Translations under genes and position numbers: made by a program | Shown here: positions 4,892-56,613 of the stretch, piece by piece | How the letters are laid out: every line of letters starts with the position of its first letter | How positions within the stretch are numbered: position 1 is the first letter of the stretch | Notes under the pieces: model-generated | Told to the model about the DNA's origin: nothing | Seen by the model: only the letters and a program-made list of their open reading frames with translations | Databases searched by the model: none | Assembly (NCBI GenBank): GCA_951406725.2 | Contig: OX597823.1 | Location: 52,204,001-52,268,000 of the forward strand | Direction: 5' to 3' | DNA length: 64,000 bases | Source of the DNA: Octopus vulgaris | Taxonomy: Eukaryota

Positions 4892-5269
4892 GAAAATTTT
4901 CCTGATCATATAACCCCTAATATTCGGCCTCCTAATTTCCCAGATCTCAATCCATTGGACTATCACATGTGGAGCGTTGTTGAGTGAGAGGTCAATGAAC
5001 ATGCCCATAATACCAAAGATTCTTTGAAAGCTGCCATAGTCAGAGTAATGTCTCAAATGAACCAGGACCACTTGATTCGAGCATGCAGATGATATAGATC
5101 TCATACAGAAGCAGTTATTGATGCTGAAGGTGGCTTTATTGAATAATATTATAGGAATGAAGCTTTATTTTTATCCTCATAGCATTTTTTGATAACTAAA
5201 ATTATCTGTTATTATATATCTGTTTTTTTAATAAACATCAGTCTGTCCTCATATAGCTTATGCACCCTG
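4892..5269 (+). mobile_element. 3' fragment of Tc1/mariner-superfamily (maT/DD37D-like) transposon with right TIR
   Basis: Frame from 4892 reads ENFPDHITPNIRPPNFPDLNPLDYHMWSVVE*EVN...CR*YRSHTEAVIDAEGGFIE* (xPPNSPDLNPLDY motif, two in-frame TGA); ends GCACCCTG followed by TA. Confidence 0.85.
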
Positions 5270-5307
5270 TATATGTATATATATATATGTGTGTGTATAT
5301 ATACACT

Positions 5308-5354
<47 letters not shown>

Positions 5355-5388
5355 ACACATGCATTCACACACATACACACACATATAA

Positions 5389-5425
<37 letters not shown>

Positions 5426-6242
5426 GAAATTAATAAATATCAGGAGAACAGAAATTTACACATGCTAGCCACCAGGATTATATATCCCTTGGAACCATTT
5501 TTGGAAACATACATAGTCCAAGATGTCAAAGTGGCAAATTTTCTGTTTGTTTACTTCATCATATGTTTTGATATATAGCATTGTTTGTTTCATTTATGCC
5601 TTTTTTTAATCAGTGATAATATACATTCTGTTTTTAGGGCTCTTTGAAAGTTTTGTTGTTTTGAAGTGTTTGAAAAAGTGCCAAAATCTTTACATTTTTA
5701 ATCAAGTTGATTAAGTCTGTTTCAAAATATTGGTGTGAAACACAAATCAACCTGTTCAACATCGTGGACTTTTACACTTCCACATTTAATTTCCTTCTTC
5801 TGAAATCCCTATTCTATGAGAGACAATACACTGGGATTTATGTTTGAGGCATCAGAATAATGATGGTTGCTTGAAGGTCACTCTTGCATCATACTTGTTC
5901 TTACAAGGTCAAAACAGAAGGTGACCCTTCTATATTTGACCTCTGCATCAAAAGTTGTTGGATAGATGTCAAAAATTTCATTGGATATCTATACAGGACA
6001 CCAATAAGAAGCATACTTCGCCCTGTAGGGCAATCTTGTACAGAAGATTCTGTCTTTTTAAGAACATGTGGGGGCTCTTTACTGGCTAACTTTAAACCAC
6101 CACCTGTTAATGCTGTCTCTTAACATCTTACTATAATTCTGTCCGTTGCTTTCTTCAGAATCCTTTTAAAGGATGGCTCTTATTCCACCTGATAGCATTT
6201 CAAGACACTACTTGCAGATAATAATGTCAAGGGAAATTTATC

Positions 6243-8629: not shown

Positions 8630-9072
8630 AAGGTGGTGAGCTGGCAGAAACATTAGCATACCAGGTGAAATGCTTTGCAGTATTTTGTCAGTCTTTACGT
8701 TCTGAGTTCAAATTCCACTGAGGTTGGCTTTGCCTTTCAACCTTTCAGGGTCGATAAATTAAGTACCAGTTACATATTGAGCTCAGTCTAATCGATTAGA
8801 ACCCCACTCCTCAAAAATTTTGGCCCTAGAGTAGAAAAGATTATTATAATATCTATAAAGGAGGCAACAAACTGGCAAAATCGTTAGCATGCCAAACAAA
8901 ATGCTAACAGCATTTCATCTGTCTTTACATTCTGAGTTCAAATTCTGCCGAGGTACATTTTGCCTTTCATATTTTCAGGGTCGATGAAATAAATACCAGT
9001 TACACACTGGCTCAATGTAATAGACTAACCCCTTCCCTCAAAATTTCAGGCCTTGTGCCTATAGTAGAAAGG

Positions 9073-9131
<59 letters not shown>

Positions 9132-9316
9132 AGGCAGTGAGCTGGCAGAATTGTTAGCACACCGGGCAAAATGCATAGCAGTATTTTGCTCATTGCTACT
9201 TTCTGAGTTCAAATTCCACCGAGGTCAACTTTGCTTTCATCTTTTCAGGATCGATGAAATAAATACCAGTTGAGTACTGGGATCAATGTAATCGACTATC
9301 ACCCTCCCCCAAATTA
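8630..9316 (+). mobile_element. Three head-to-tail copies of SINE family A (about 8630-8847, 8859-9128, 9131-9316)
   Basis: Each starts AAGGYRGYGAGCTGGCAGAA-like and carries the GAGTTCAAATTC B-box; separated by (ATT)n tails. Confidence 0.9.
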
Positions 9317-9321
9317 CATAT

Positions 9322-9692
9322 ATGTGCAGGAGTGGCTGTGTGGTAAGAAGCTTGCTTCCCAGCCACATGGTTATGGGTTCAGTCCCACTGTGTTGCACTT
9401 TGGGCAAGTTTCTTCTACTATAGCCTTAGGCTGACCAAGCTTTGTGAGTGTATTTGGAAGATGGAAACTGAAAGAAGCCCATCCTATATATATGTGAGTG
9501 TGTGTGTAAATATTTGTGTGTGTGTGTCTTTATGGCTGTGTTTGTTCAACCCCCACCATCGCTTGACAGCTGATAGAATAAGTACTAGGCTTACAAAGAA
9601 TAAGTCCTGGAGTTGATTTGTTCAACTAAAAGTGATGCTCCAGCGTAGCCACAGTCAAATGACTGAAACCAGTAAAAGAAGAATAAAAGAAT
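9322..9692 (+). mobile_element. SINE family B (~400 bp, tRNA-derived, CORE-like segment, internal (TA)/(TG) microsatellite)
   Basis: GCAGGAGTGGCTGTGTGGTAAG..GGTTCAGTCCC..TTGGGCAAG..GCTCCAGC..CAAATGACTGAAAC; resembles described octopus tRNA-derived SINEs (OK/OR type, exact family not assigned). Confidence 0.85.
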
Positions 9693-22055: not shown

Positions 22056-23919
22056 GACAATTTAGAACTTTTTCTGCTGTCCTTTAATAGATTCAGTAGA
22101 TCATTGGTATATATAGGTTTTAGGGAACTATCAAATCTAAGACATTTTATTGTAACTTGAAAAACTCAAATTTGAAATATTTAGGGCTGAAGAATAATTC
22201 TTATAAACATCTATTGGTGTGTATTTCACATTGAATTCCTCAATAAACATCTTGTTGACTATAAGTTTCAAATACCTTTGTGCATGGCTTATTCATTATT
22301 TCTTGTATTTCATATACATCCATTTTATATAGTTCCCAGTTGAATACAATAAAGGGAATCTTGTTGACAACCTCTAAATTATCAGTTGAGAAGTAGTGAT
22401 GTACTTGTAACTTAATTTCCCTTATTATCACCTGCAATTATAAACCTTTGTGTATCTTATGATCTTCTTACTAGAAATATGGCATCTATGATTTCATGTT
22501 CGGTACAAATGTAACTTATATGTTATCTTAGCTAATCTTATCTTGAACTAACTTTGTGAAATACATGACAGAACTCCCTTGTGGCTTGCAGCAATTTGTC
22601 CTTTACAACTGCCCAGTTGCTCTCTGTATTATAGAGCTCTGTCTCATATATTTCTTTTTAAGTGCTATTTAATAGTTTCAAAAGAAAAATAATTATAAGG
22701 CGTAGGAGTTGCTGTGTGATAAGAAGCTTGCTTCCCAACCACAGAGTTCTGGGCTCAATCCTGCAGTGTGGCACCTTTGGTAAGTGTCTTCTGCTACAGC
22801 CTCAGGCCAACCAAAGCTTTGTGATTCAGGGATATTCATAAGTATACCTCATACAAGTATACTTTGAGACAGTAATCACTGTTAAATTTTATTATTATCT
22901 TGTAACTCTTTCAATCCATGCTGGATGTTTGTGTAAAAACAAACGCTGGCCTATCAACAGATCACTTCCTAGTTGTCTGCAACCGAAGACTGTTAGAATT
23001 CATAGGTAGAAGACAGGTAGAACTTGCACAGAATGTATAATAACTAAAATTATCAATTAATGAAGTATTTTATAAGGCTAACTTTCATAAATGCATTTAT
23101 TTCTTTTTTATTTACTTGATACAAAACCTATGTGTACTTGCATATGTACATGGAACAGGTAGTGCTTTCCAATATTTTGCACACTTTATGGAAGTTTTAA
23201 TTTGCTGAATTCTTAGACCTAATAACAGTGAAGATTTTGTTTCAGTAATTTTAGTTGGTAATATGTTAAAGTTTAAGATATGAATTATGTAACATCGATC
23301 AGTTATCTTCTCAGCAGCTCTTCTTCTAGTCTTTAGTTTTACATCTTTAATTTTAGATTTAATTACTTCCTTTAAAGATTTCTCTCACCTAACTTTCTTT
23401 TCCATAGCTAGTACGGTCACAGAGCTGTGGCATAGTAGAAATAGTGGAATATAACATTTGTAAACACTATAACTTTGATTTCCAATGCAATTGACTTAAT
23501 CCTTTTATTCATGGGGTTAATAACTCAAGTATCAGTAAGGTGCTGGGGTTGATTTAATCAACTATGTTCATATTGTGTTCTTGTCAACAACTTTTATGCT
23601 CCATAGTTATATTCTACTCCTACATAAAGATCTTCAAAAATGTCACCAGGGTGCCTTTTTGCATAGAGTACATAACATGGTAAAGAGCTTTTAATTAATT
23701 GTGCCAACAAAAATTGTCTCCACACAGTATGTCTTTGTTTAATTTTTAACCAATTTAAATTTGCTAAATTACTGTCCGTTATCGCCCTTAGCAAGAATTT
23801 TAATTAATGCTATGATGACTTTCATTCTCATTATGGGTGCGATTTCAATTGATTAAAACTTATTTATTGTTTATTACTGTATGTATGTTAGTTTGCATAT
23901 AAGTATATATGTATATATA

Positions 23920-24508: not shown

Positions 24509-25808
24509 CAATATTAAAGCTCCTATAATAGGTTATACAAATTTTAACATGAATTACTTTCACATAAAATATTTTCTTTTCTTTATAAGCTGACCATCAT
24601 CTTGTTTGTTTCAATATTTCAGTGACTAGAAATCTATACTTCATTTGTAGATTCTATTTAACTTAAAACAAAAACACAAATAACAATATTACTACTAATA
24701 GCTCATGGTTGGTACGGATATTTTGCCAAGGAAATTCTTTATTTTTAATGCATAAACTATTTTTTTCCTTTCACTACAAGAGAAAGTATATTACAACCAG
24801 TATAATTCAGTAAATATATTAAATTGGATCACAGGTACTTTGACTAGATTTCATTTTTTTTTTCTTTTCAAGTAATCTTATTTTAGCCACATATTTTCCT
24901 CTCTTGAAACGAAGAATCTGTTGTTCCTTGTCTCTGTATGAATCTTAACTGTTTCTTGCTTGTATTTATCATTTCATAGATCTGCAATTTTCATATCTGT
25001 AACCTTCATCATTTGATTTATTAACCCTTTTCAAGTCTATATCTACTAACAGCATGTGTAATATGCACTTCACTGCAGTTTTTGATGATAAATCATGTCT
25101 TGAATGAGACAAACTGAAGTGACAAGCAGAAAATGAGATTTAGATCTAGTTATATCTATTTGTACCTTTGAATGCGCTAACCTTCTGTTTTACATGTCAA
25201 TTCAAGTTCTGCGTGTATCTCATGTAACTCTGCATTTAAAAAGGTTTAGCGTTCCTGAAATGTCTCCACTTCCTCATCATAACAGTTGACAATAGTACAG
25301 ATTTGTCAGTTGCCCAAAAGTTTACTCTTGCATAGAATCTAATCATCTACATTATTGCAGTCTAAGGTTTTTCTGTCTCTTAGAGCACTTGCTTGTAGAT
25401 TTGAATTACTATCAATGCTGTCTCGTATGTTGCTGTTGTTGTTGCTGTTGTGTTTGTCCCTATAGAAATTCAATGTTGCAATTTGAGTTGAAGTAGTGGA
25501 ATGACTTCAAATGAAATTGACTTCAGATTTGAATCTTCTGGAGAAGAACTAGGCCATGAGAAAGAGCTACACAAGGGTACGTTTAGTTGAACAATTTCTA
25601 TTTCATTCAGAATATAGTTAAATGTCAGTAACATTGCTCCATTGGAACCTGCTATTTCATATAGCATGTGTCACAGATATTTTAATGAAAACCCTTTTAT
25701 AAAAATCAAACTTTCATCTATTGATTTGATTCCTGTTAATAGTCCAAAACATCTCCAGTTTCTACTTTATCACAATGTCTAGGTTTCTAAACAAGAGAAT
25801 AATTATTC

Positions 25809-25948
25809 ACATTATTTACACTTGACAGATATTTGTCCTCATCTTGTTTGTTGTTAACGTTTTGGCTGATACACCCTCCAGCCTTCATCAGGTGTCTTGG
25901 GGAAATTTCGAACCTGGGTTCTCATTCCTAGGGTATTTTTCGATGTTG

Positions 25949-25980
<32 letters not shown>

Positions 25981-26093
25981 GTTATTATTATTATTATTAT
26001 TATTACTATTATTATTATTATTATTCAGGTCACTGCCTGGAATTGAACTCGGAACCTTGGGGTTAGTAGCCCGTGCTCTTAACCACGCCATAT
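25809..26093 (-). mobile_element. tRNA-headed, (AAT)n-spaced, hammerhead-containing element, copy 1
   Basis: Minus strand: ATGGCGTGGTTAAGAGCACGGGCTACTAACCCCAAGGTTCCGAGTTCAATTCC (A box, anticodon arm, B box), (AAT)n, then GACAC-CTGATGA-AGGCTG..CAGCC-AAAAC-GTT (25896-25856). Homologous to 55135-55417. AAGAGAATAATTA repeated at 25793-25805 and 26118-26130. Confidence 0.85.
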
Positions 26094-26200
26094 CTCATCT
26101 CTTAAATATAGAACTGTAAGAGAATAATTACTCTATTTCACCATTATTTTCTAAATGCATTGAATAGTGCCACAGCATTTAACCAGAAGTTGTCACTTAA

Positions 26201-27812: not shown

Positions 27813-28611
27813 ACGTAGTTTTAAATATGATATACTGGAAGAAAAATGGAGTAATCTGCGATTGCCATGTCTTTTGTCTCTGGATGTCTCAGTTAAGATC
27901 AGCTGAGTGCCTAAACAACAACAATAAAAACCTGGACATGGTTGGTAGAAATCATAACCAAATCCAGTCTCCAAGAAATAGCCAAGAAATTTTCCTCAAA
28001 ACAATCTACCGTTCTAGAATAATTTCAATAATTACTCCAGAATAATCACTCAAATCTCTTTCACAAATCAGTACTGAGCTGGCTAAACAACAACAACAAC
28101 AACAACAAAAACAACAATAACAACAACGATGACGACAACAACAACAACAGCAGTGATATAACTTTAATGTATTCCTATTAAACAAAATATTAAAAATTCA
28201 TTAGTTTTATTGCTATGTAACTATTAAGTGCAATGGGTTGTCAGAATCAGTAGAGTGACTGACAAAATGACATGTGCTACGTAGTTATGACTCATTGCAT
28301 TTGGATTCTGAATCTTACTAAAATCAACTTTGCCTTTTATCCTTTGACTGTAAATGTGTAGTCACCATTTGAGATCATTGAAGATTATGTGGCCTAATAC
28401 TTGAAAAGCTTCAGAATGTTTTAATTGTGAGGTGTTCATTGATGCTGTTGTTTTTGTTGTTTAATTCCCAAACTGATTGGACAGATGTATGAGTAAAGAA
28501 GGTCCAACTATGGGTATACTTTATCTGGGATAATGTTTATTCTATGTATTTTTCTTTCCTTCACGATGGCAAGATGCAATGGGAGGGAGACTGGGGTCCT
28601 ACTTTTCTGAA

Positions 28612-28998
28612 GGATGTGTCAGTGTGGTAAGGGGTTTACTCCTCAATCAAATTATTCCAGGTTCAGTTCCCTTGTGTGCCAATTGAGGCAGGTGTCTTTC
28701 CTTATAGCCCCTGGCCAACCAAAGTTTTGTAAATGGATTTGGTTGACAGAAAGGCGGCGAGCTGGCAGGAACATTAGCACACCAGGCAAAATGCTTAGTG
28801 GTATTTCATCTGCCATTACATTCTGAGTTCAAATTCCACTGAGGTCGACTTTACCTTTCATCCTTTTGGGGTCAAGAAATTAAGTATGAGTTACACACTG
28901 GGTTGATGTAATCGACTTAATCCCTTTGTCTGTCCTCGTTTGTCCCCTCTATGTTTAACCCCTTGTGGGCAATAAAGAAATAAGAAACTGAAAGGAGC
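28612..28998 (+). mobile_element. SINE family A (28752-28985) nested inside an older family B copy
   Basis: Family B reads to GGATTTGGTTGACAGAAA, switches to GGCGGCGAGCTGGCAG, and resumes GAAACTGAAAG after the A tail. Confidence 0.85.
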
Positions 28999-31096: not shown

Positions 31097-31367
31097 GTTG
31101 TTTGTTCCTTCTCGAGCCACGCCCGGCTCATAAGGGCTGGTTTCCCGGTTCCCTTGGCATATAGGTTCCTCATCTGGACAAGACGCCAGTCCATCACAGG
31201 TGAGCTGCAAGATGCAGGAGGAAAGAGTGAAAGAAAGTTGTGGTGAAAGAGTCAGCAGAACTTAGGTGTTTCACTCATAAACACACACATCGCCCGGTTT
31301 GAGATTTGAACCCGCAATCCCTCGACCACACGTCCACTGCTCTAACCACTAGGCCGTGTACTTCCAT
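31097..31367 (-). mobile_element. SINE family E (tRNA-derived head, V-domain-like segment)
   Basis: Minus strand GGCCTAGTGGTTAGAGCAGTGGAC..GCGGGTTCAAATCTC head; GATGGACTGGCGTCTTGTCCAG segment. Confidence 0.75.
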
Positions 31368-32962: not shown

Positions 32963-34396
32963 CATTTATGTATGTATGTATGTATGTATGTGTAGATATA
33001 TATAAACTTATATATGTGTATATATCTATGAGAGTTCTAAAAATCAAAATCAGGATTTTCTCAGTGTTCCAATCTATATGTAAATCTTTTGTCTTCTTAT
33101 CCAAGAAAAGCTTTTCCATTTTGTCTAAATCTTTGCTTCTTAAAGGGATCTTTCACATGAAAAGAAATCAGTCCTTTTGGTTATAGCAGTCATTTTGACT
33201 TGTACAAAGTATATGTCAGATATGAAGCAAATAACAGTTTGATTGTCTTTAGCTTCTTTTCAAAGGAATCAAGGGACAACCGCAGTGTAATAAGTTCGAT
33301 GTACAAAGAGCAAATGTATAGTTTATCACAGATTTTACAATAATACTCTAAACACTGGCAGAACACTTGCCCTTTGAGGTCATTCAAGTAGTTATTTATC
33401 ATCATTGTTTACTTATTTTTATATGAAAATATACACACATAAAAAAAATTGTAACTGAATTACATTGCTCTAATCATAGAAGAAGCAATGAAAAGATGCA
33501 GGCATTTGAAAAGTGTAATGTTTGTGAGTAATAACTTGTGTCTAATCTTTGATTGTTCCAAGTCAAAAGAAAGATAACTATTTGAATGTCCAGTTTTGTT
33601 ACATAAGATTTTATAGGAATAGAAGAGAAATAGTTTACTTGCTGTTAAGGTTATATGCATTCTGTTTATTTATATTTGAGTATTTTTACCTCTTCTACCA
33701 AAATAAACATTTTAGAATTAGTATTGGAATATAGAATAAGCAGTGTTCTGTCTATCTAAGAAGCTGGAGAAGTGAGTGAGGGAAAATGCTCAATGATCTT
33801 ACTAGCTGGCTATAGAAAGCTCAGCATGATAACATGGTAAATATTATGATGGAGAGAAGAGGTAGAGGCTCATCAAGGAATAGTTAGTTTATGTCACCCA
33901 GGTTAGCCCCTGATTTTGCCTCCCACCCCTTTCAGCCTTGCAGCTTTTACAGGCTTATACAGCAAACCCAAAAGTGCCATCTCCATAAAAGCATCACCTG
34001 GGGGCAGACTGCAAACTGGCCTCTTGTTCTAGCTATGCTACTGAAGTTTGTAATTATTGATGTGTGTAAACACGACACTTGAAAAAGCTCCACCTAAAAA
34101 ATGCAAAAGTAAATCACCTATCAATTTAACACTCTTTGTATTGTCTTCCTTCCTCTCATCTACAAAATACTGAGAGGTGAGGAAATTCCAAGTTTGGAAT
34201 GTAAACTGCTTTAACAATTGTATTTACAATAAAACCTCTTGGCTCATCCAACTATCCAGTAATTAGAAGACGATAAAAGTAATAGGTGTGATTGGGCTGT
34301 GCTAACCAAACTTTTCCTCAACTGGGGAGAAAGCCCTCTGCCTATCTATTTCAATGATTTCATTTCAATATTTATTTTCTTATCTAACTAAGCACC

Positions 34397-34560
34397 AAGC
34401 TGGCAGAATCGTTAGCATGCCAGAGGAAATGCTTAGCAGTATTTCATCTGCCCTTACATTCTGAGTCAAAATCCCATTGAGGTCAGCTTTGCCTTTCATC
34501 CTTTCAAGGTTGATAAAATAAGTATCATTTGAACTTTTGGGATTGATGTAATTGACTTAA
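34397..34560 (+). mobile_element. SINE family A
   Basis: AGCTGGCAGAATCGTTAGCATGCC..TTTGCCTTTCATCCTTTC. Confidence 0.85.
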
Positions 34561-35208: not shown

Positions 35209-35621
35209 GCGTTGGAGTGGCTGTGTGATAAGTAGCTTGCTTACCAACCACATGGTTCCAGGTTCAGTCCCACTGTGTGGCACCTTGGGCAAGTGTCTTC
35301 TACTATAGCTTTGGGCCAACCAAAACCTTGTGAGTGGATTTGGTAGATGGAATCTGAAAGAAGCCCGTCGTATATATGTATATGTATATATATGTAAGTG
35401 TGTGTATATGTTTGTGTGTCTGTGTTTGTCCCCCCAACATCACTTGACAACTGATGCTGGTGTGTTTACGTCCCCGTAACTTAGCGGTTCAGCAAAAGAG
35501 ACCGATAGAATAAGTACTAGGCTTACAAAGAATAAGTCTTGGGGTCGATTTGCTCGACTAAAAGGCAGTGCTCCTGCATGGCCACAGTCAAATGACTGAA
35601 ACAAGTAAAAGAGTAAAAGAA
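35209..35621 (+). mobile_element. SINE family B, full length
   Basis: A/B-box head, CORE-like CACCTTGGGCAAGTG, internal microsatellite, (GTAAAAGA)n tail. Confidence 0.92.
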
Positions 35622-40511: not shown

Positions 40512-40918
40512 TGTGCTGGTGACACGTAAAAAGTACTTGTGCTGGTGCTATGTAAAAGCACTCATGTGCTGCCCCATAAAGCACCCATTACACTTTGTAA
40601 AGTGGTTGGCACTAGGAAAGGCATTCATTTATAAAAATTGTGCCAAATCAGACTAGGGCCTGGTGCAGCTCTCCAGTTTGCCAGCTCTGGTCAAACCGTC
40701 CAACCCAGGCCAGCATGGACAATGGACATTAAATGACGATGATGATGATGATGAAGATGATGATGGGCTTCTTTCAGTTTCTGGCTACCAGATCCTTTTA
40801 TAAGGTTTTGGTCAGTCCAAGGCTATAGCAGAAGATACTTGCTCAAGTTGCCACACAGTGGGACTGAACCCAGAACCATGTGGTTAGGAAGCAAACACTT
40901 TACCACATAACCACGCCT
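40512..40918. mobile_element. Family C copy (+, 40512-40765) abutting a family B 5' half (-, 40764-40918)
   Basis: (GAT)n tail runs directly into GGGCTTCTTTCAGTTT..ACCACATAACCACGCC. Confidence 0.8.
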
Positions 40919-49509: not shown

Positions 49510-49628
49510 TAAAGCAAACTGAGATGAAGTGTTTTGCTCAAGAACACAACACTATCAGTCTAGGAATTGAACTCTCAATCTAGTGATCATGAATGCCATA
49601 CACTAACCACTAGGCCACGTACCTTCAC
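49510..49628 (-). mobile_element. 5' part of a family D/E-type tRNA-derived SINE
   Basis: AAGTGTTTTGCTCAAGAACACAAC..GGAATTGAACTC..CTAACCACTAGGCCAC. Confidence 0.7.
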
Positions 49629-54963: not shown

Positions 54964-55024
54964 ATCAGCTGTCTAGGGAAATTTCGAACCTGGTTTTTCA
55001 TTCCTAAGGTATTCTTCGATGTTG

Positions 55025-55062
<38 letters not shown>

Positions 55063-55417
55063 GTTCAGGTCACTGCTTGAAATCGAACTCGGAATCTTGA
55101 GGTTAGTAGCCCATGCTCTTAACCATTATGCCATATGGCGTAATGGTTAAGAGCACAGGCTACTAACCTCAAGATTCTGAGTTCAATTCCAAGCAGTGAC
55201 AATTATAATAATAATAATAATAATAATGATAATAATAATAATAATAATAACAACAACATCGAAGAATACCTTAGGAATGAGAACCCAGGTTCAAAATTTC
55301 CCCAAGACACCTGAAGAAGGCTGGAGGGTATATCAGCTGAAACATTGTGTTAACAACAAACAATATTAGGACAAATATCTGTCGAGTGTAGATAATGTAA
55401 ATAGTGTAAATGATGTA
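54964..55417 (+). mobile_element. tRNA-headed hammerhead element, copy 2, with head-to-head inverted duplication
   Basis: Palindrome centred on CCAT|ATGG (55134/55135), arms about 54964-55134 and 55135-55315; right arm continues through GACAC-CTGAAGA-AGGCTG..CAGCT-GAAAC-ATT-GTGTT (55306-55351) and a short AAATAATGT-like repeat tail. Confidence 0.9.
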
Positions 55418-56613
55418 TAAAATATACTCTCCTTCATTTTCTACAATGCTCTTCCATCTATCTGGTAGACCTGCAAGGCCCTCTTCCAAAATTCACTTGT
55501 CTGTGATGAAAAATACTCTTCCAGTATTGTTCTGACCTCATCTACAGAATTCATATTTTTTCAGTCTAAAAGACTTTGAAGACTGTGGAATAAATGGTAA
55601 TCAAATGGGGCAATGTCCACCGAATATGGTTGATGGGGCATCGTTTCCCATTCTGACTGCTCCAGCCTTTGGAATGTCGTTGTCACTGTATGTGGCCAAG
55701 CATTATCCTGATGGAAGAACACCTTTTGTTGTGAAACCAAAGATGGTCATTTTTCTTCTAGCGCTGACTTAAGCTGCTTACCGTAAATCTCCTCTGTTAT
55801 CATTTAATTGGGGTTTAAAAGTTCAAAGTGGACTAAATCTTTCATATACCACCAAACAGATGACAACACCCTACATGGGTGAAGACTTTCTTTAGCCTGG
55901 GTTGCCAATGTTTCTCCTTTCCCTACCCACTGTCTTTGGCACTTGATGTTTTTATAGAGAAACCATTTCTCATCACCAGTTACTTTTCAGTACAAAAAAA
56001 GGTTTATTTGTGAGACATGGCAGAAAAGCAGAGCACACATTCACTCTCTGTACGTGATTAAACTCAGAAAGTTTGTGAAGAACCAATTGACCTAATTTGC
56101 TGACTTTTCCAATGGCACGGAGGTGTCGATGAATAGTTGAATGACCAAATCCAAGCTTTCCTGCTAGTTCCTGAACTATTACAATGGGATTTTGTTTCAC
56201 CAGGGTTTGCAGGACATACTCATTGAACTCTACAGATCTTCCAGAATGAGGCTCGTCTTCTAGGCCGTAGTTTCCGGCTCTGAATTTCTGGAACCACTGT
56301 TGACACTGGCTTACACTTATTGTCCAATCCCCATATACTGCATTAATATTCCTCACACTTTCTGTTGCATTGTTGTCTTTATTGAACGCATACAGCAAAA
56401 TATGCCTAATATTCTCTTTTGTCACTTCCATTATAGGTTAAAAAAAGGAACTGTTAAAATCGCATTGCAATCATCTAAACTTGCACTAAGAATAAGGACA
56501 GAGTAAAATTACTACCTGCTTGTATTGCAAGTTAATGCAGGTGGCTTATCACATCCCCCTCCGACTATTTGTTCATGCAATTGAAAAAACCGCATTATTT
56601 ATGGGAAGATCCA

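What the first reader, a model, noticed from the sequence alone, without database searches (positions are those of the whole stretch)
54964..55417. Chimeric retroelement: tRNA-like Pol III head + (AAT)n + hammerhead ribozyme, arranged as a head-to-head palindrome
Seen: from 55135 the + strand reads a tRNA-like head (A box TGGCGTAATGG, arm GGCTACTAACC, B box GAGTTCAATTCC), an (AAT)n spacer, a unique ~50-nt segment and a hammerhead motif at 55306-55351. The first ~170 bp are mirrored exactly about CCAT|ATGG, and the mirrored arm stops inside the ribozyme core. A second copy lies at 25809-26093 (minus). Neither copy is intact, but their defects are complementary. The two-copy consensus GACAC-CTGAWGA-AGGCTG-loop-CAGCC-GAAAC-GTT-GTGTT has a full core and a loopless palindromic stem III (AACGTT). 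Known: Penelope-like elements carry minimal type I hammerheads with palindromic stem III that cleave as dimers and often insert with inverted terminal repeats; Schistosoma SM-alpha is a precedent for a tRNA-related repeat with a hammerhead. Inference: this is a Pol III-driven, self-cleaving, SINE-like element mobilised by a Penelope-type rather than a LINE-type reverse transcriptase. I am not aware of this being described in cephalopods, but cannot check.
Basis: partly seen in the sequence, partly recalled or inferred. Interest (0 to 1): 0.85.

Follow-up and report, generated by a model that had tools for sequence, protein, structure and literature searches.

The report
Penelope retrotransposon with tRNA-like promoter end
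This repeat is the terminal repeat of a protein-coding Penelope-type retrotransposon, present in many thousands of copies, and it carries a tRNA-like segment that likely acts as an RNA polymerase III promoter, which would be an unusual way to transcribe a protein-coding mobile element.

Summary
The feature is real, but it is not a free-standing SINE. Head, (AAT)n, hammerhead and 'unique segment' together form the pseudo-LTR (pLTR) of an autonomous Penelope/Poseidon-type retrotransposon (RT + C-terminal GIY-YIG). The head follows the ORF's stop codon in 28 of 30 ORF-end loci, and the 'unique segment' holds the ORF's start codon. About 25,000 arms are estimated genome-wide. Inverted pairs, one arm with a 30-40 bp extension (61 of 65), target-site duplications (41 of 65) and a minimal type I hammerhead inside the ORF start are published PLE features. 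I did not find in print: a tRNA(Arg)-like segment with A and B boxes inside the pLTR; a roughly six-fold drop in copies at that segment's 5' end; and a 2.6-kb unit with no run of four T's (7 of 8 relatives have 8-25). Together these suggest Pol III transcription, so that most insertions are SINE-like solo pLTRs. Pol III use is inferred, not shown; hairpin self-priming or Pol II initiation are rivals. No intact ORF was seen. Verdict: new variant of a known kind, interest 0.55.

The parts
54964..55134 (-). Inverted pLTR arm: head 55069-55134, (AAT)n, ORF start (ATG at 55001); outer end missing, stops inside the hammerhead core
   Evidence: 154 matches, 17 mismatches to the right arm; no TSD seen at this insertion
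55135..55200 (+). tRNA(Arg)-like head of the pLTR; lies about 30 nt after the ORF stop codon in longer copies
55136..55146 (+). A-box-like motif
   Evidence: sequence; box consensus recalled, matched against host tRNAs
55179..55190 (+). B-box-like motif
   Evidence: sequence; the ORF-linked copy L245 scores 14.7 on a host-tRNA B-box matrix, the highest of the elements scored
55201..55256 (+). (AAT/AAC)n spacer, variable in length, often hit by later insertions
55277..55416 (+). First ~46 codons of the PLE ORF (ATG 55277), part of the pLTR; ends at the 'short' 3' end
55306..55351 (+). Minimal type I hammerhead inside the ORF start: stem I 55306-55310/55347-55351, core 55311-55317, stem II 55319-55323/55334-55338, predicted cut after 55346; this copy has lost the stem III palindrome
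   Evidence: motif as described by Cervera and De la Pena 2014
25806..26093 (-). Second copy, solo pLTR: head 26029-26093, spacer, ATG at 25925, damaged hammerhead (starts 25896), short 3' end
26094..26116 (+). Inverted 23-bp stub of the long 3' end (PLE 'tail') of the second copy
25793..25805 (.). Target-site duplication of the second copy (13 bp)
26118..26130 (.). Target-site duplication of the second copy (13 bp)

Best explanation
The finding is an inverted pair of pseudo-LTRs of an autonomous Penelope/Poseidon-type retrotransposon whose RNA likely starts at a tRNA-derived, polymerase III-type promoter inside the pLTR. Shown by sequence: the full unit is pLTR (tRNA-like head, (AAT)n, start codon, hammerhead) - 831-codon RT/GIY-YIG ORF - pLTR; the unit has no run of four T's; short copies end sharply at the head's 5' end. 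Inferred mechanism: Pol III starts a few bases upstream of the head and, meeting no T-run terminator, can read the whole unit. As shown in vitro for the lizard Poseidon PAc, the protein would nick both target strands and start reverse transcription at two internal sites, here about 120-130 and 160 nt into the ORF. On the 5' pLTR of the RNA this copies only ~300 nt up to the RNA's 5' end, giving SINE-like solo pLTRs; on the 3' pLTR it gives 5'-truncated ORF copies. The two cDNAs join head to head, often through the self-complementary hairpin at the RNA's 5' end, giving palindromes with one long and one short end inside one TSD. The hammerhead would cleave only as a dimer or with protein help and need not be required for insertion.
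For: Element identity: head directly after the stop codon in 28 of 30 ORF-end-picked loci and downstream of 13 of 20 RT-picked loci; pLTR directly upstream of the ORF in 12 of 30 N-terminus-picked loci, 4 with head; natural 569-aa RT+GIY-YIG frame in L218 followed by head and tail, with an inverted arm upstream; the frame runs from the ATG through the ribozyme in natural copies, and homolog P0123 has the same in-frame ribozyme peptide. PLE integration: one long plus one short end in 61 of 65 (p 2e-14), TSD-like repeat >=8 nt in 41 of 65 against 2.8% in shuffled pairs, both arms share the core N7 variant in 51 of 56 against 35.5 expected. Promoter: estimated arms 25,600 at the ribozyme, 14,800 in the head, 2,500 just upstream of the head; only 3 of 70 arms that reach the head's 5' end continue upstream; beyond that point truncation is slow (median extent 666 nt among 29 copies picked for >=~216). 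T-runs: 0 in 2,636 nt against 4.6 (base shuffle, P 0.008), 4.0 (codon usage of five other ORFs of this genome, P 0.011) and 2.9 (own synonymous shuffle, P 0.025); 7 of 8 near-whole relatives have 8-25 runs, and the eighth (L297, 2 runs) has a B-box-like motif at the same distance from its hammerhead (-103 against -107). No free SINE with this head seen: 169 of 185 head hits run into the (AAN)n spacer and the other 16 share no alternative body (overlapping loci counted more than once).
Against: No direct test of Pol III use. The drop in copies coincides with a 5-bp hairpin in the master that can self-prime, and palindromes at inverted junctions are described for PLEs with TATA/Inr-like pLTRs. 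The D. virilis Penelope promoter is a TATA-less, DPE-containing internal promoter. T-run tests are only P 0.01-0.03 and compare a majority sequence with single copies; natural copies have 0-3 runs per 1.1-1.7 kb; 7 of 80 relatives have no T-run in their matched RT/EN stretch, and an unrelated 565-codon ORF in L208 has 0 against 3.4. L345 has a B-box match yet 22 runs. L297's tRNA-likeness is weak: no Rfam hit, no hit with the host-tRNA HMM, and relaxed ARAGORN also rings in 3 of 19 other relatives. An uncapped Pol III RNA is a poor mRNA (recalled). Two RNA runs of a related species showed no start or end pile-ups and equal depth in both directions. 5 of 56 pairs differ at N7.
Confidence: 0.6

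Rival explanations
1. Same Poseidon-type element, but the tRNA-like segment is a passenger (a SINE or tRNA fragment captured in the 3' UTR). Transcription is by Pol II from the pLTR or by host read-through, and the sharp 5' boundary comes from hairpin self-priming, RT stalling on the tRNA-like fold, or a Pol II start that happens to lie there.
For: The PLE promoters in the papers read are Pol II-type; the hairpin lies at the boundary and 459 exact mirrored junctions use it; T-run absence has only P 0.01-0.03 and occurs in an unrelated ORF; reads show only passive co-transcription.
Against: Many boundaries at head positions -7..+5 have no mirror at all; both boxes are kept while the cloverleaf is lost; no free SINE with this head was seen; the seven other near-whole relatives have about twice the expected T-runs (108 against 55).
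Confidence: 0.3
2. One reading: an independent non-autonomous SINE (tRNA head plus PLE 3' end) with its own master loci, mobilised in trans; ORF-linked copies are one branch and most short copies descend from short masters.
For: Arms carrying the head outnumber arms that continue upstream of it about six to one; any solo pLTR with an internal promoter and RT start sites could in principle be re-mobilised; Sm-alpha is a tRNA-related SINE-like element with a hammerhead.
Against: Short copies match the pLTR, including the few bases upstream of the head; the N7 variant has similar frequency in ORF-linked (3 of 20) and short (17 of 90) copies; the head is fixed in the autonomous element.
Confidence: 0.1

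Closest known systems
Poseidon PAc of Anolis carolinensis (Frangieh et al. 2024, PMC11167929; parts 1-2 of 4 read)
   Same: pLTR-ORF-pLTR, RT plus C-terminal GIY-YIG, hammerhead overlapping the ORF start with the cut downstream of the ATG, two internal RT start sites giving a 30-40 bp tail
   Different: No tRNA-like segment, A/B boxes or Pol III mentioned in the parts read; here most copies are solo or inverted pLTRs ending at a tRNA-like 5' end
Adineta vaga Penelope families (Arkhipova et al. 2013, PMC3846280; passages)
   Same: Inverted pLTRs, palindromes at the inverted junction, tail on one pLTR, 8-10 bp TSDs, pLTR holding the first codons, solo pLTRs
   Different: Their pLTR has TATA/Inr-like motifs and few copies; this one has tRNA-type boxes and ~25,000 arms
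Minimal type I hammerheads of metazoan PLEs (Cervera and De la Pena 2014, PMC4209133; parts 1-2 of 4 read)
   Same: 5-bp stem I, unpaired base before stem II, loopless palindromic stem III; mostly found as single dispersed motifs
   Different: No tRNA head described in the parts read; activity of this motif untested
Schistosoma Sm-alpha / Sj-alpha (as described in Copeland et al. 2009, PMC2770079; passages; the 1998 original was not held)
   Same: tRNA-related SINE-like repeat carrying a hammerhead, high copy
   Different: Described as SINE-like; no autonomous parent given in the passages seen; canonical hammerhead. Here the unit is the pLTR of a coding element
Non-LTR retrozymes (Cervera and De la Pena 2020, PMC7229834, passages; Li et al. 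2026, 10.64898/2026.07.22.740005, parts 1-3 of 5)
   Same: Short hammerhead-bearing repeats related to PLE pLTRs
   Different: Tandem head-to-tail arrays; here dispersed single or head-to-head copies; the 2020 paper has no occurrence of SINE or Pol III in its main text

Membership tests
EN+ Penelope-like element | Single ORF with RT and C-terminal GIY-YIG endonuclease | tested here: met
   Natural 569-aa and 465-aa frames, RVT_1 E 3e-6 and 6e-10; nearly all of the 120 best homologs carry RVT_1, PF26215 and/or PF28514, a few PF01541. Pfam GIY-YIG itself did not hit L218; the motif was read from translations
EN+ Penelope-like element | pLTRs flanking the ORF and holding the first codons | tested here: met
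EN+ Penelope-like element | Inverted 5'-truncated copy, 30-40 bp tail on one end only, TSD | tested here: met
   61 of 65 and 41 of 65; definition
EN+ Penelope-like element | Minimal type I hammerhead in the pLTR | tested here: met
   Majority motif and fold; Rfam models do not detect it; cleavage not tested
Penelope/Poseidon clade | CCHH motif present, CX2-5CxxC linker finger absent (Craig et al. 2021) | tested here: met
   Translations; criterion; the other family PLE-A has the linker finger
Penelope/Poseidon clade | Phylogenetic placement with named Poseidon references | tested here: inconclusive
   Quick tree separates it from PLE-A by a long branch but holds no named reference; no PDB relative
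tRNA-derived SINE | tRNA-derived head with A and B boxes | tested here: met
   (29 distinct host tRNAs of a few isotypes only, so the parent tRNA is provisional); Rfam and ARAGORN negative
tRNA-derived SINE | Non-autonomous, independent of a coding element | tested here: not met
   The unit is the pLTR of a coding element; marker shared
tRNA-derived SINE | Transcribed by Pol III | not testable with these tools
   Indirect only: 5' boundary and T-run absence; read data uninformative
Non-LTR retrozyme | Head-to-tail tandem repeats, each with a hammerhead | tested here: not met
   Copies are single or head-to-head; no tandem array in those loci
Known octopus SINEs OK/OR1/OR2 or any Repbase/Dfam entry | Sequence identity to a deposited consensus | not testable with these tools
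   Ohshima and Okada 1994 not held; no repeat database available

The most novel reading that the evidence does not exclude
An autonomous, protein-coding retrotransposon transcribed by RNA polymerase III from a captured tRNA promoter, with its 2.6-kb unit purged of T-run terminators, whose own terminal repeat behaves as a SINE; a similar arrangement may have arisen in at least one distant Poseidon lineage (L297). It would show a route to SINE-like families that needs no LINE partner and might explain tRNA-plus-hammerhead repeats such as Sm-alpha.
Probability: 0.35. Interest if true: 0.8.

Novelty: new variant of a known kind. Interest (0 to 1): 0.55.

Why it matters
The PLE promoters in the papers read are Pol II-type, and SINEs are defined as non-autonomous. 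An element that joins a tRNA-type promoter to its own RT/endonuclease ORF blurs that line and gives a testable link between PLE pLTRs and tRNA-headed hammerhead repeats. The thousands of dated insertions also record the PLE mechanism in vivo (two RT start sites, one TSD, shared template), matching the only in vitro study I found. Practically, about 25,000 arms that a pipeline would likely label SINE belong to one PLE family.

Tried and rejected
Intron in the pLTR (GT..AG, 38-47 nt): gave an open frame but was rejected, because homologs keep an aromatic residue that is encoded across the supposed acceptor and the unspliced frame is open from an upstream ATG. Partner among Pfam GIY-YIG hits: 0 of 30 loci shared head or tail; those are Neptune-type families. 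Ribozyme with a different upstream sequence: 44 matches; the 30 fetched are truncation or deletion junctions, not a second family. Rfam: no tRNA or hammerhead (one search showed 150 of 233 rows, none of them these). Centre dinucleotide (AC or GT) against long or short arm: no clear relation. Stem covariation within the family: not informative, changes are mostly CpG decay; only 8 of 80 arms keep the full motif. Expression: no RNA holder listed on record; in two RNA runs of another species label, pLTR depth reached ~1,400 per direction against up to ~13 in the ORF, with equal directions, 92% of reads running into unlike sequence and no start or end sites; not evidence either way. Viral contigs: nothing. 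PDB: nothing. L374's tRNA-like palindrome has no hammerhead and is not that element's pLTR. Earlier findings of this scan: none returned. Paper searches for a tRNA-headed or Pol III PLE or a cephalopod case listed no title or abstract opening that describes one; most listed papers were not read, subscription papers and Repbase/Dfam are not covered, and bioRxiv supplements were not seen. DNA of the closest relatives (P0121-P0127) was not obtained.

Full report
Observation. The arms are 90% alike, not exact. An exact 24-mer across the ribozyme core occurs 6,767 times (control 0). It is exact in 27 of 102 arms picked by other parts, which gives about 25,600 arms. Arms differ from their majority by 5% on average (80 arms, biased towards the queries). 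Head and ribozyme are linked: 27 of 30 head-picked loci carry the tail downstream, and 169 of 185 head hits run into the (AAN)n spacer.

Ribozyme. The majority of 80 arms has a 5-bp stem I, core CTGA(T/A)GA, one unpaired A, a 5-6 bp stem II and a loopless GAAACGTT. This is the minimal PLE hammerhead of Cervera and De la Pena 2014 (parts 1-2 read), which showed no cleavage as a monomer and low cleavage as a dimer. Rfam does not detect it. Copies decay mainly at CpG; 8 of 80 keep the whole motif. Cleavage is untested.

What it belongs to. The Pfam GIY-YIG search gave Neptune-type families that share nothing with the repeat (0 of 30). A position-ordered sample then showed an ORF end directly upstream of the head (L141). 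Searching with that ORF end, 28 of 30 loci have the head about 30 nt after the stop codon. Of 20 loci picked by the RT core, 13 have the head downstream; L218 holds a natural 569-aa RT/endonuclease frame, then head and tail, with an inverted arm upstream. Of 30 loci picked by the N-terminus, 12 have the tail directly upstream of the ORF, 4 of them with head. The frame opens at the ATG in the 'unique segment' (window 55277) and runs through the ribozyme; homolog P0123 encodes the same ribozyme peptide in frame. The majority ORF is 831 codons. It has the CCHH motif and lacks the linker finger, which places it with Penelope/Poseidon by the criterion of Craig et al. 2021 (passages); the quick tree has no named reference. 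The longest open frames among 150 RT hits were 569 and 559 aa, so the family is probably inactive.

How copies were made. Of 71 distinct two-armed insertions, 65 could be scored: 61 have one long and one short 3' end, 4 two short, none two long; 41 of 65 have a direct repeat of 8 nt or more at the outer ends (2.8% in shuffled pairs); both arms share the N7 variant in 51 of 56 (35.5 expected). So each palindrome is one event, mostly from one source. The two ends lie about 120-130 and 160 nt into the ORF. Frangieh et al. 2024 (parts 1-2 read) showed for Poseidon PAc that both strands are cut and extended, that RT starts at two internal sites that define the tail, and that the hammerhead overlaps the ORF start, needs protein and is dispensable for insertion in vitro. 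Arkhipova et al. 2013 (passages) describe inverted pLTRs, junction palindromes, tails and TSDs. This part is known biology. The window's second copy is a compact example with a 13-bp TSD. The first has lost the outer end of its left arm, and its centre lacks the family hairpin, which is exact at 459 loci.

What is unusual. (a) The head aligns best to host tRNA-Arg(TCT) and Arg(TCG) among 29 distinct host tRNAs (score 58.5, shuffled maximum 43). It keeps A- and B-box-like motifs but not the cloverleaf. (b) Exact counts are 4,485 in the head and 862 just upstream; calibrated on 40 of 132 and 10 of 29, that is about 14,800 and 2,500 arms (the second figure is rough). That is a six-fold fall over some 70 nt, against 1.7-fold over the 150-200 nt before it and slow decay after it. 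Only 3 of 70 arms reaching the head's 5' end go further (the classifier found 1, two more were read by eye). (c) The 2,636-nt unit has no run of four T's (P 0.008-0.025 under three nulls). Seven of eight near-whole relatives from public contigs have 8-25 runs, about twice expectation; the eighth, L297, has 2 and a B-box-like motif at the same distance from its hammerhead. Four or more T's as the Pol III terminator is established knowledge (see the abstract opening of PMC3141230 in the listing).

Against. None of this shows Pol III use. The boundary coincides with a hairpin that can self-prime. The T-run tests are modest and use a majority sequence. 7 of 80 relatives lack T-runs over their matched 0.9-1.7 kb (6 of 86 loci were dropped as duplicate, short or fragmented, and several of the rest are copies of one family), as does an unrelated ORF in L208. 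L345 has a B-box match and 22 runs. L297's tRNA-likeness is not confirmed. D. virilis Penelope uses a TATA-less promoter with a downstream promoter element (passages). RNA reads from another species label were uninformative.

Verdict. Membership in the EN+ PLEs is close to certain. A Pol III start at the head is likely (about 0.6); Pol III transcription of the whole coding unit is less so (about 0.35). An independent SINE is unlikely: the marker frequency is similar in ORF-linked and short copies (3 of 20, 17 of 90). Sm-alpha is the published tRNA-plus-hammerhead precedent (passages). Ten paper searches listed nothing that describes a tRNA-headed or Pol III PLE. A 2026 octopus repeat annotation (part 1 of 3 and a supplement search) has no 'hammerhead' or 'Poseidon' in its supplement; its consensus library was not seen. 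Ohshima and Okada 1994 (not held), Repbase, Dfam and bioRxiv supplements could not be checked, so a prior entry, perhaps labelled as a SINE, is possible. Other papers opened for passages only. New variant of a known kind; interest 0.55.

Noticed in passing
L091-L098 (e.g. L094 2126-4468; pLTR 244-747 and 4957-5460): A young Neptune-type PLE family: 16 of 148 GIY-YIG rows have the same 781-aa open frame, several copies 97-99% identical, with an upstream 479-aa frame; its pLTR holds a candidate hammerhead with the U3-A8 core variant. Probably recently active.
   Followed up: partly
L297 4200-4522 (public metagenome contig; same N-terminus as P0239): Distant Poseidon-type unit of 2,791 nt with a hammerhead in frame in the ORF start, a B-box-like motif 103 nt upstream, a short AAT run and only 2 T-runs; a possible second case, tRNA-likeness unconfirmed.
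   Followed up: partly
L004, L052, L149, L020, L034, L131: The (AAT)n spacer is often split by later insertions: fragments of a LINE with a restriction-like endonuclease (Dong/R4-like, label recalled) and other SINEs.
   Followed up: no
window 55420-55990, minus strand: Decayed mariner-like transposase fragment directly right of the finding (label from a recalled motif); the left flank does not obviously continue it.
   Followed up: partly
G000:C1:170000-1510000: 31 exact ribozyme 24-mers in the first 1.5 Mb of contig C1, against a genome mean of 2.4 per Mb: enrichment at a chromosome tip.
   Followed up: no
L374 1659-1929 (public metagenome contig): A 270-bp head-to-head palindrome of two tRNA-like sequences, each with the same short tail, no hammerhead.
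   Followed up: partly
window 8630-9427, 22700-22824, 28608-28900, 31300-31354, 34389-34538, 35209-35333, 40855-40904, 49563-49619: Several other SINE-like families, some with tRNA-like heads; not classified.
   Followed up: no
L208, 565-codon frame on the minus strand: An unrelated LINE-like frame with no run of four T's (3.4 expected).
   Followed up: no
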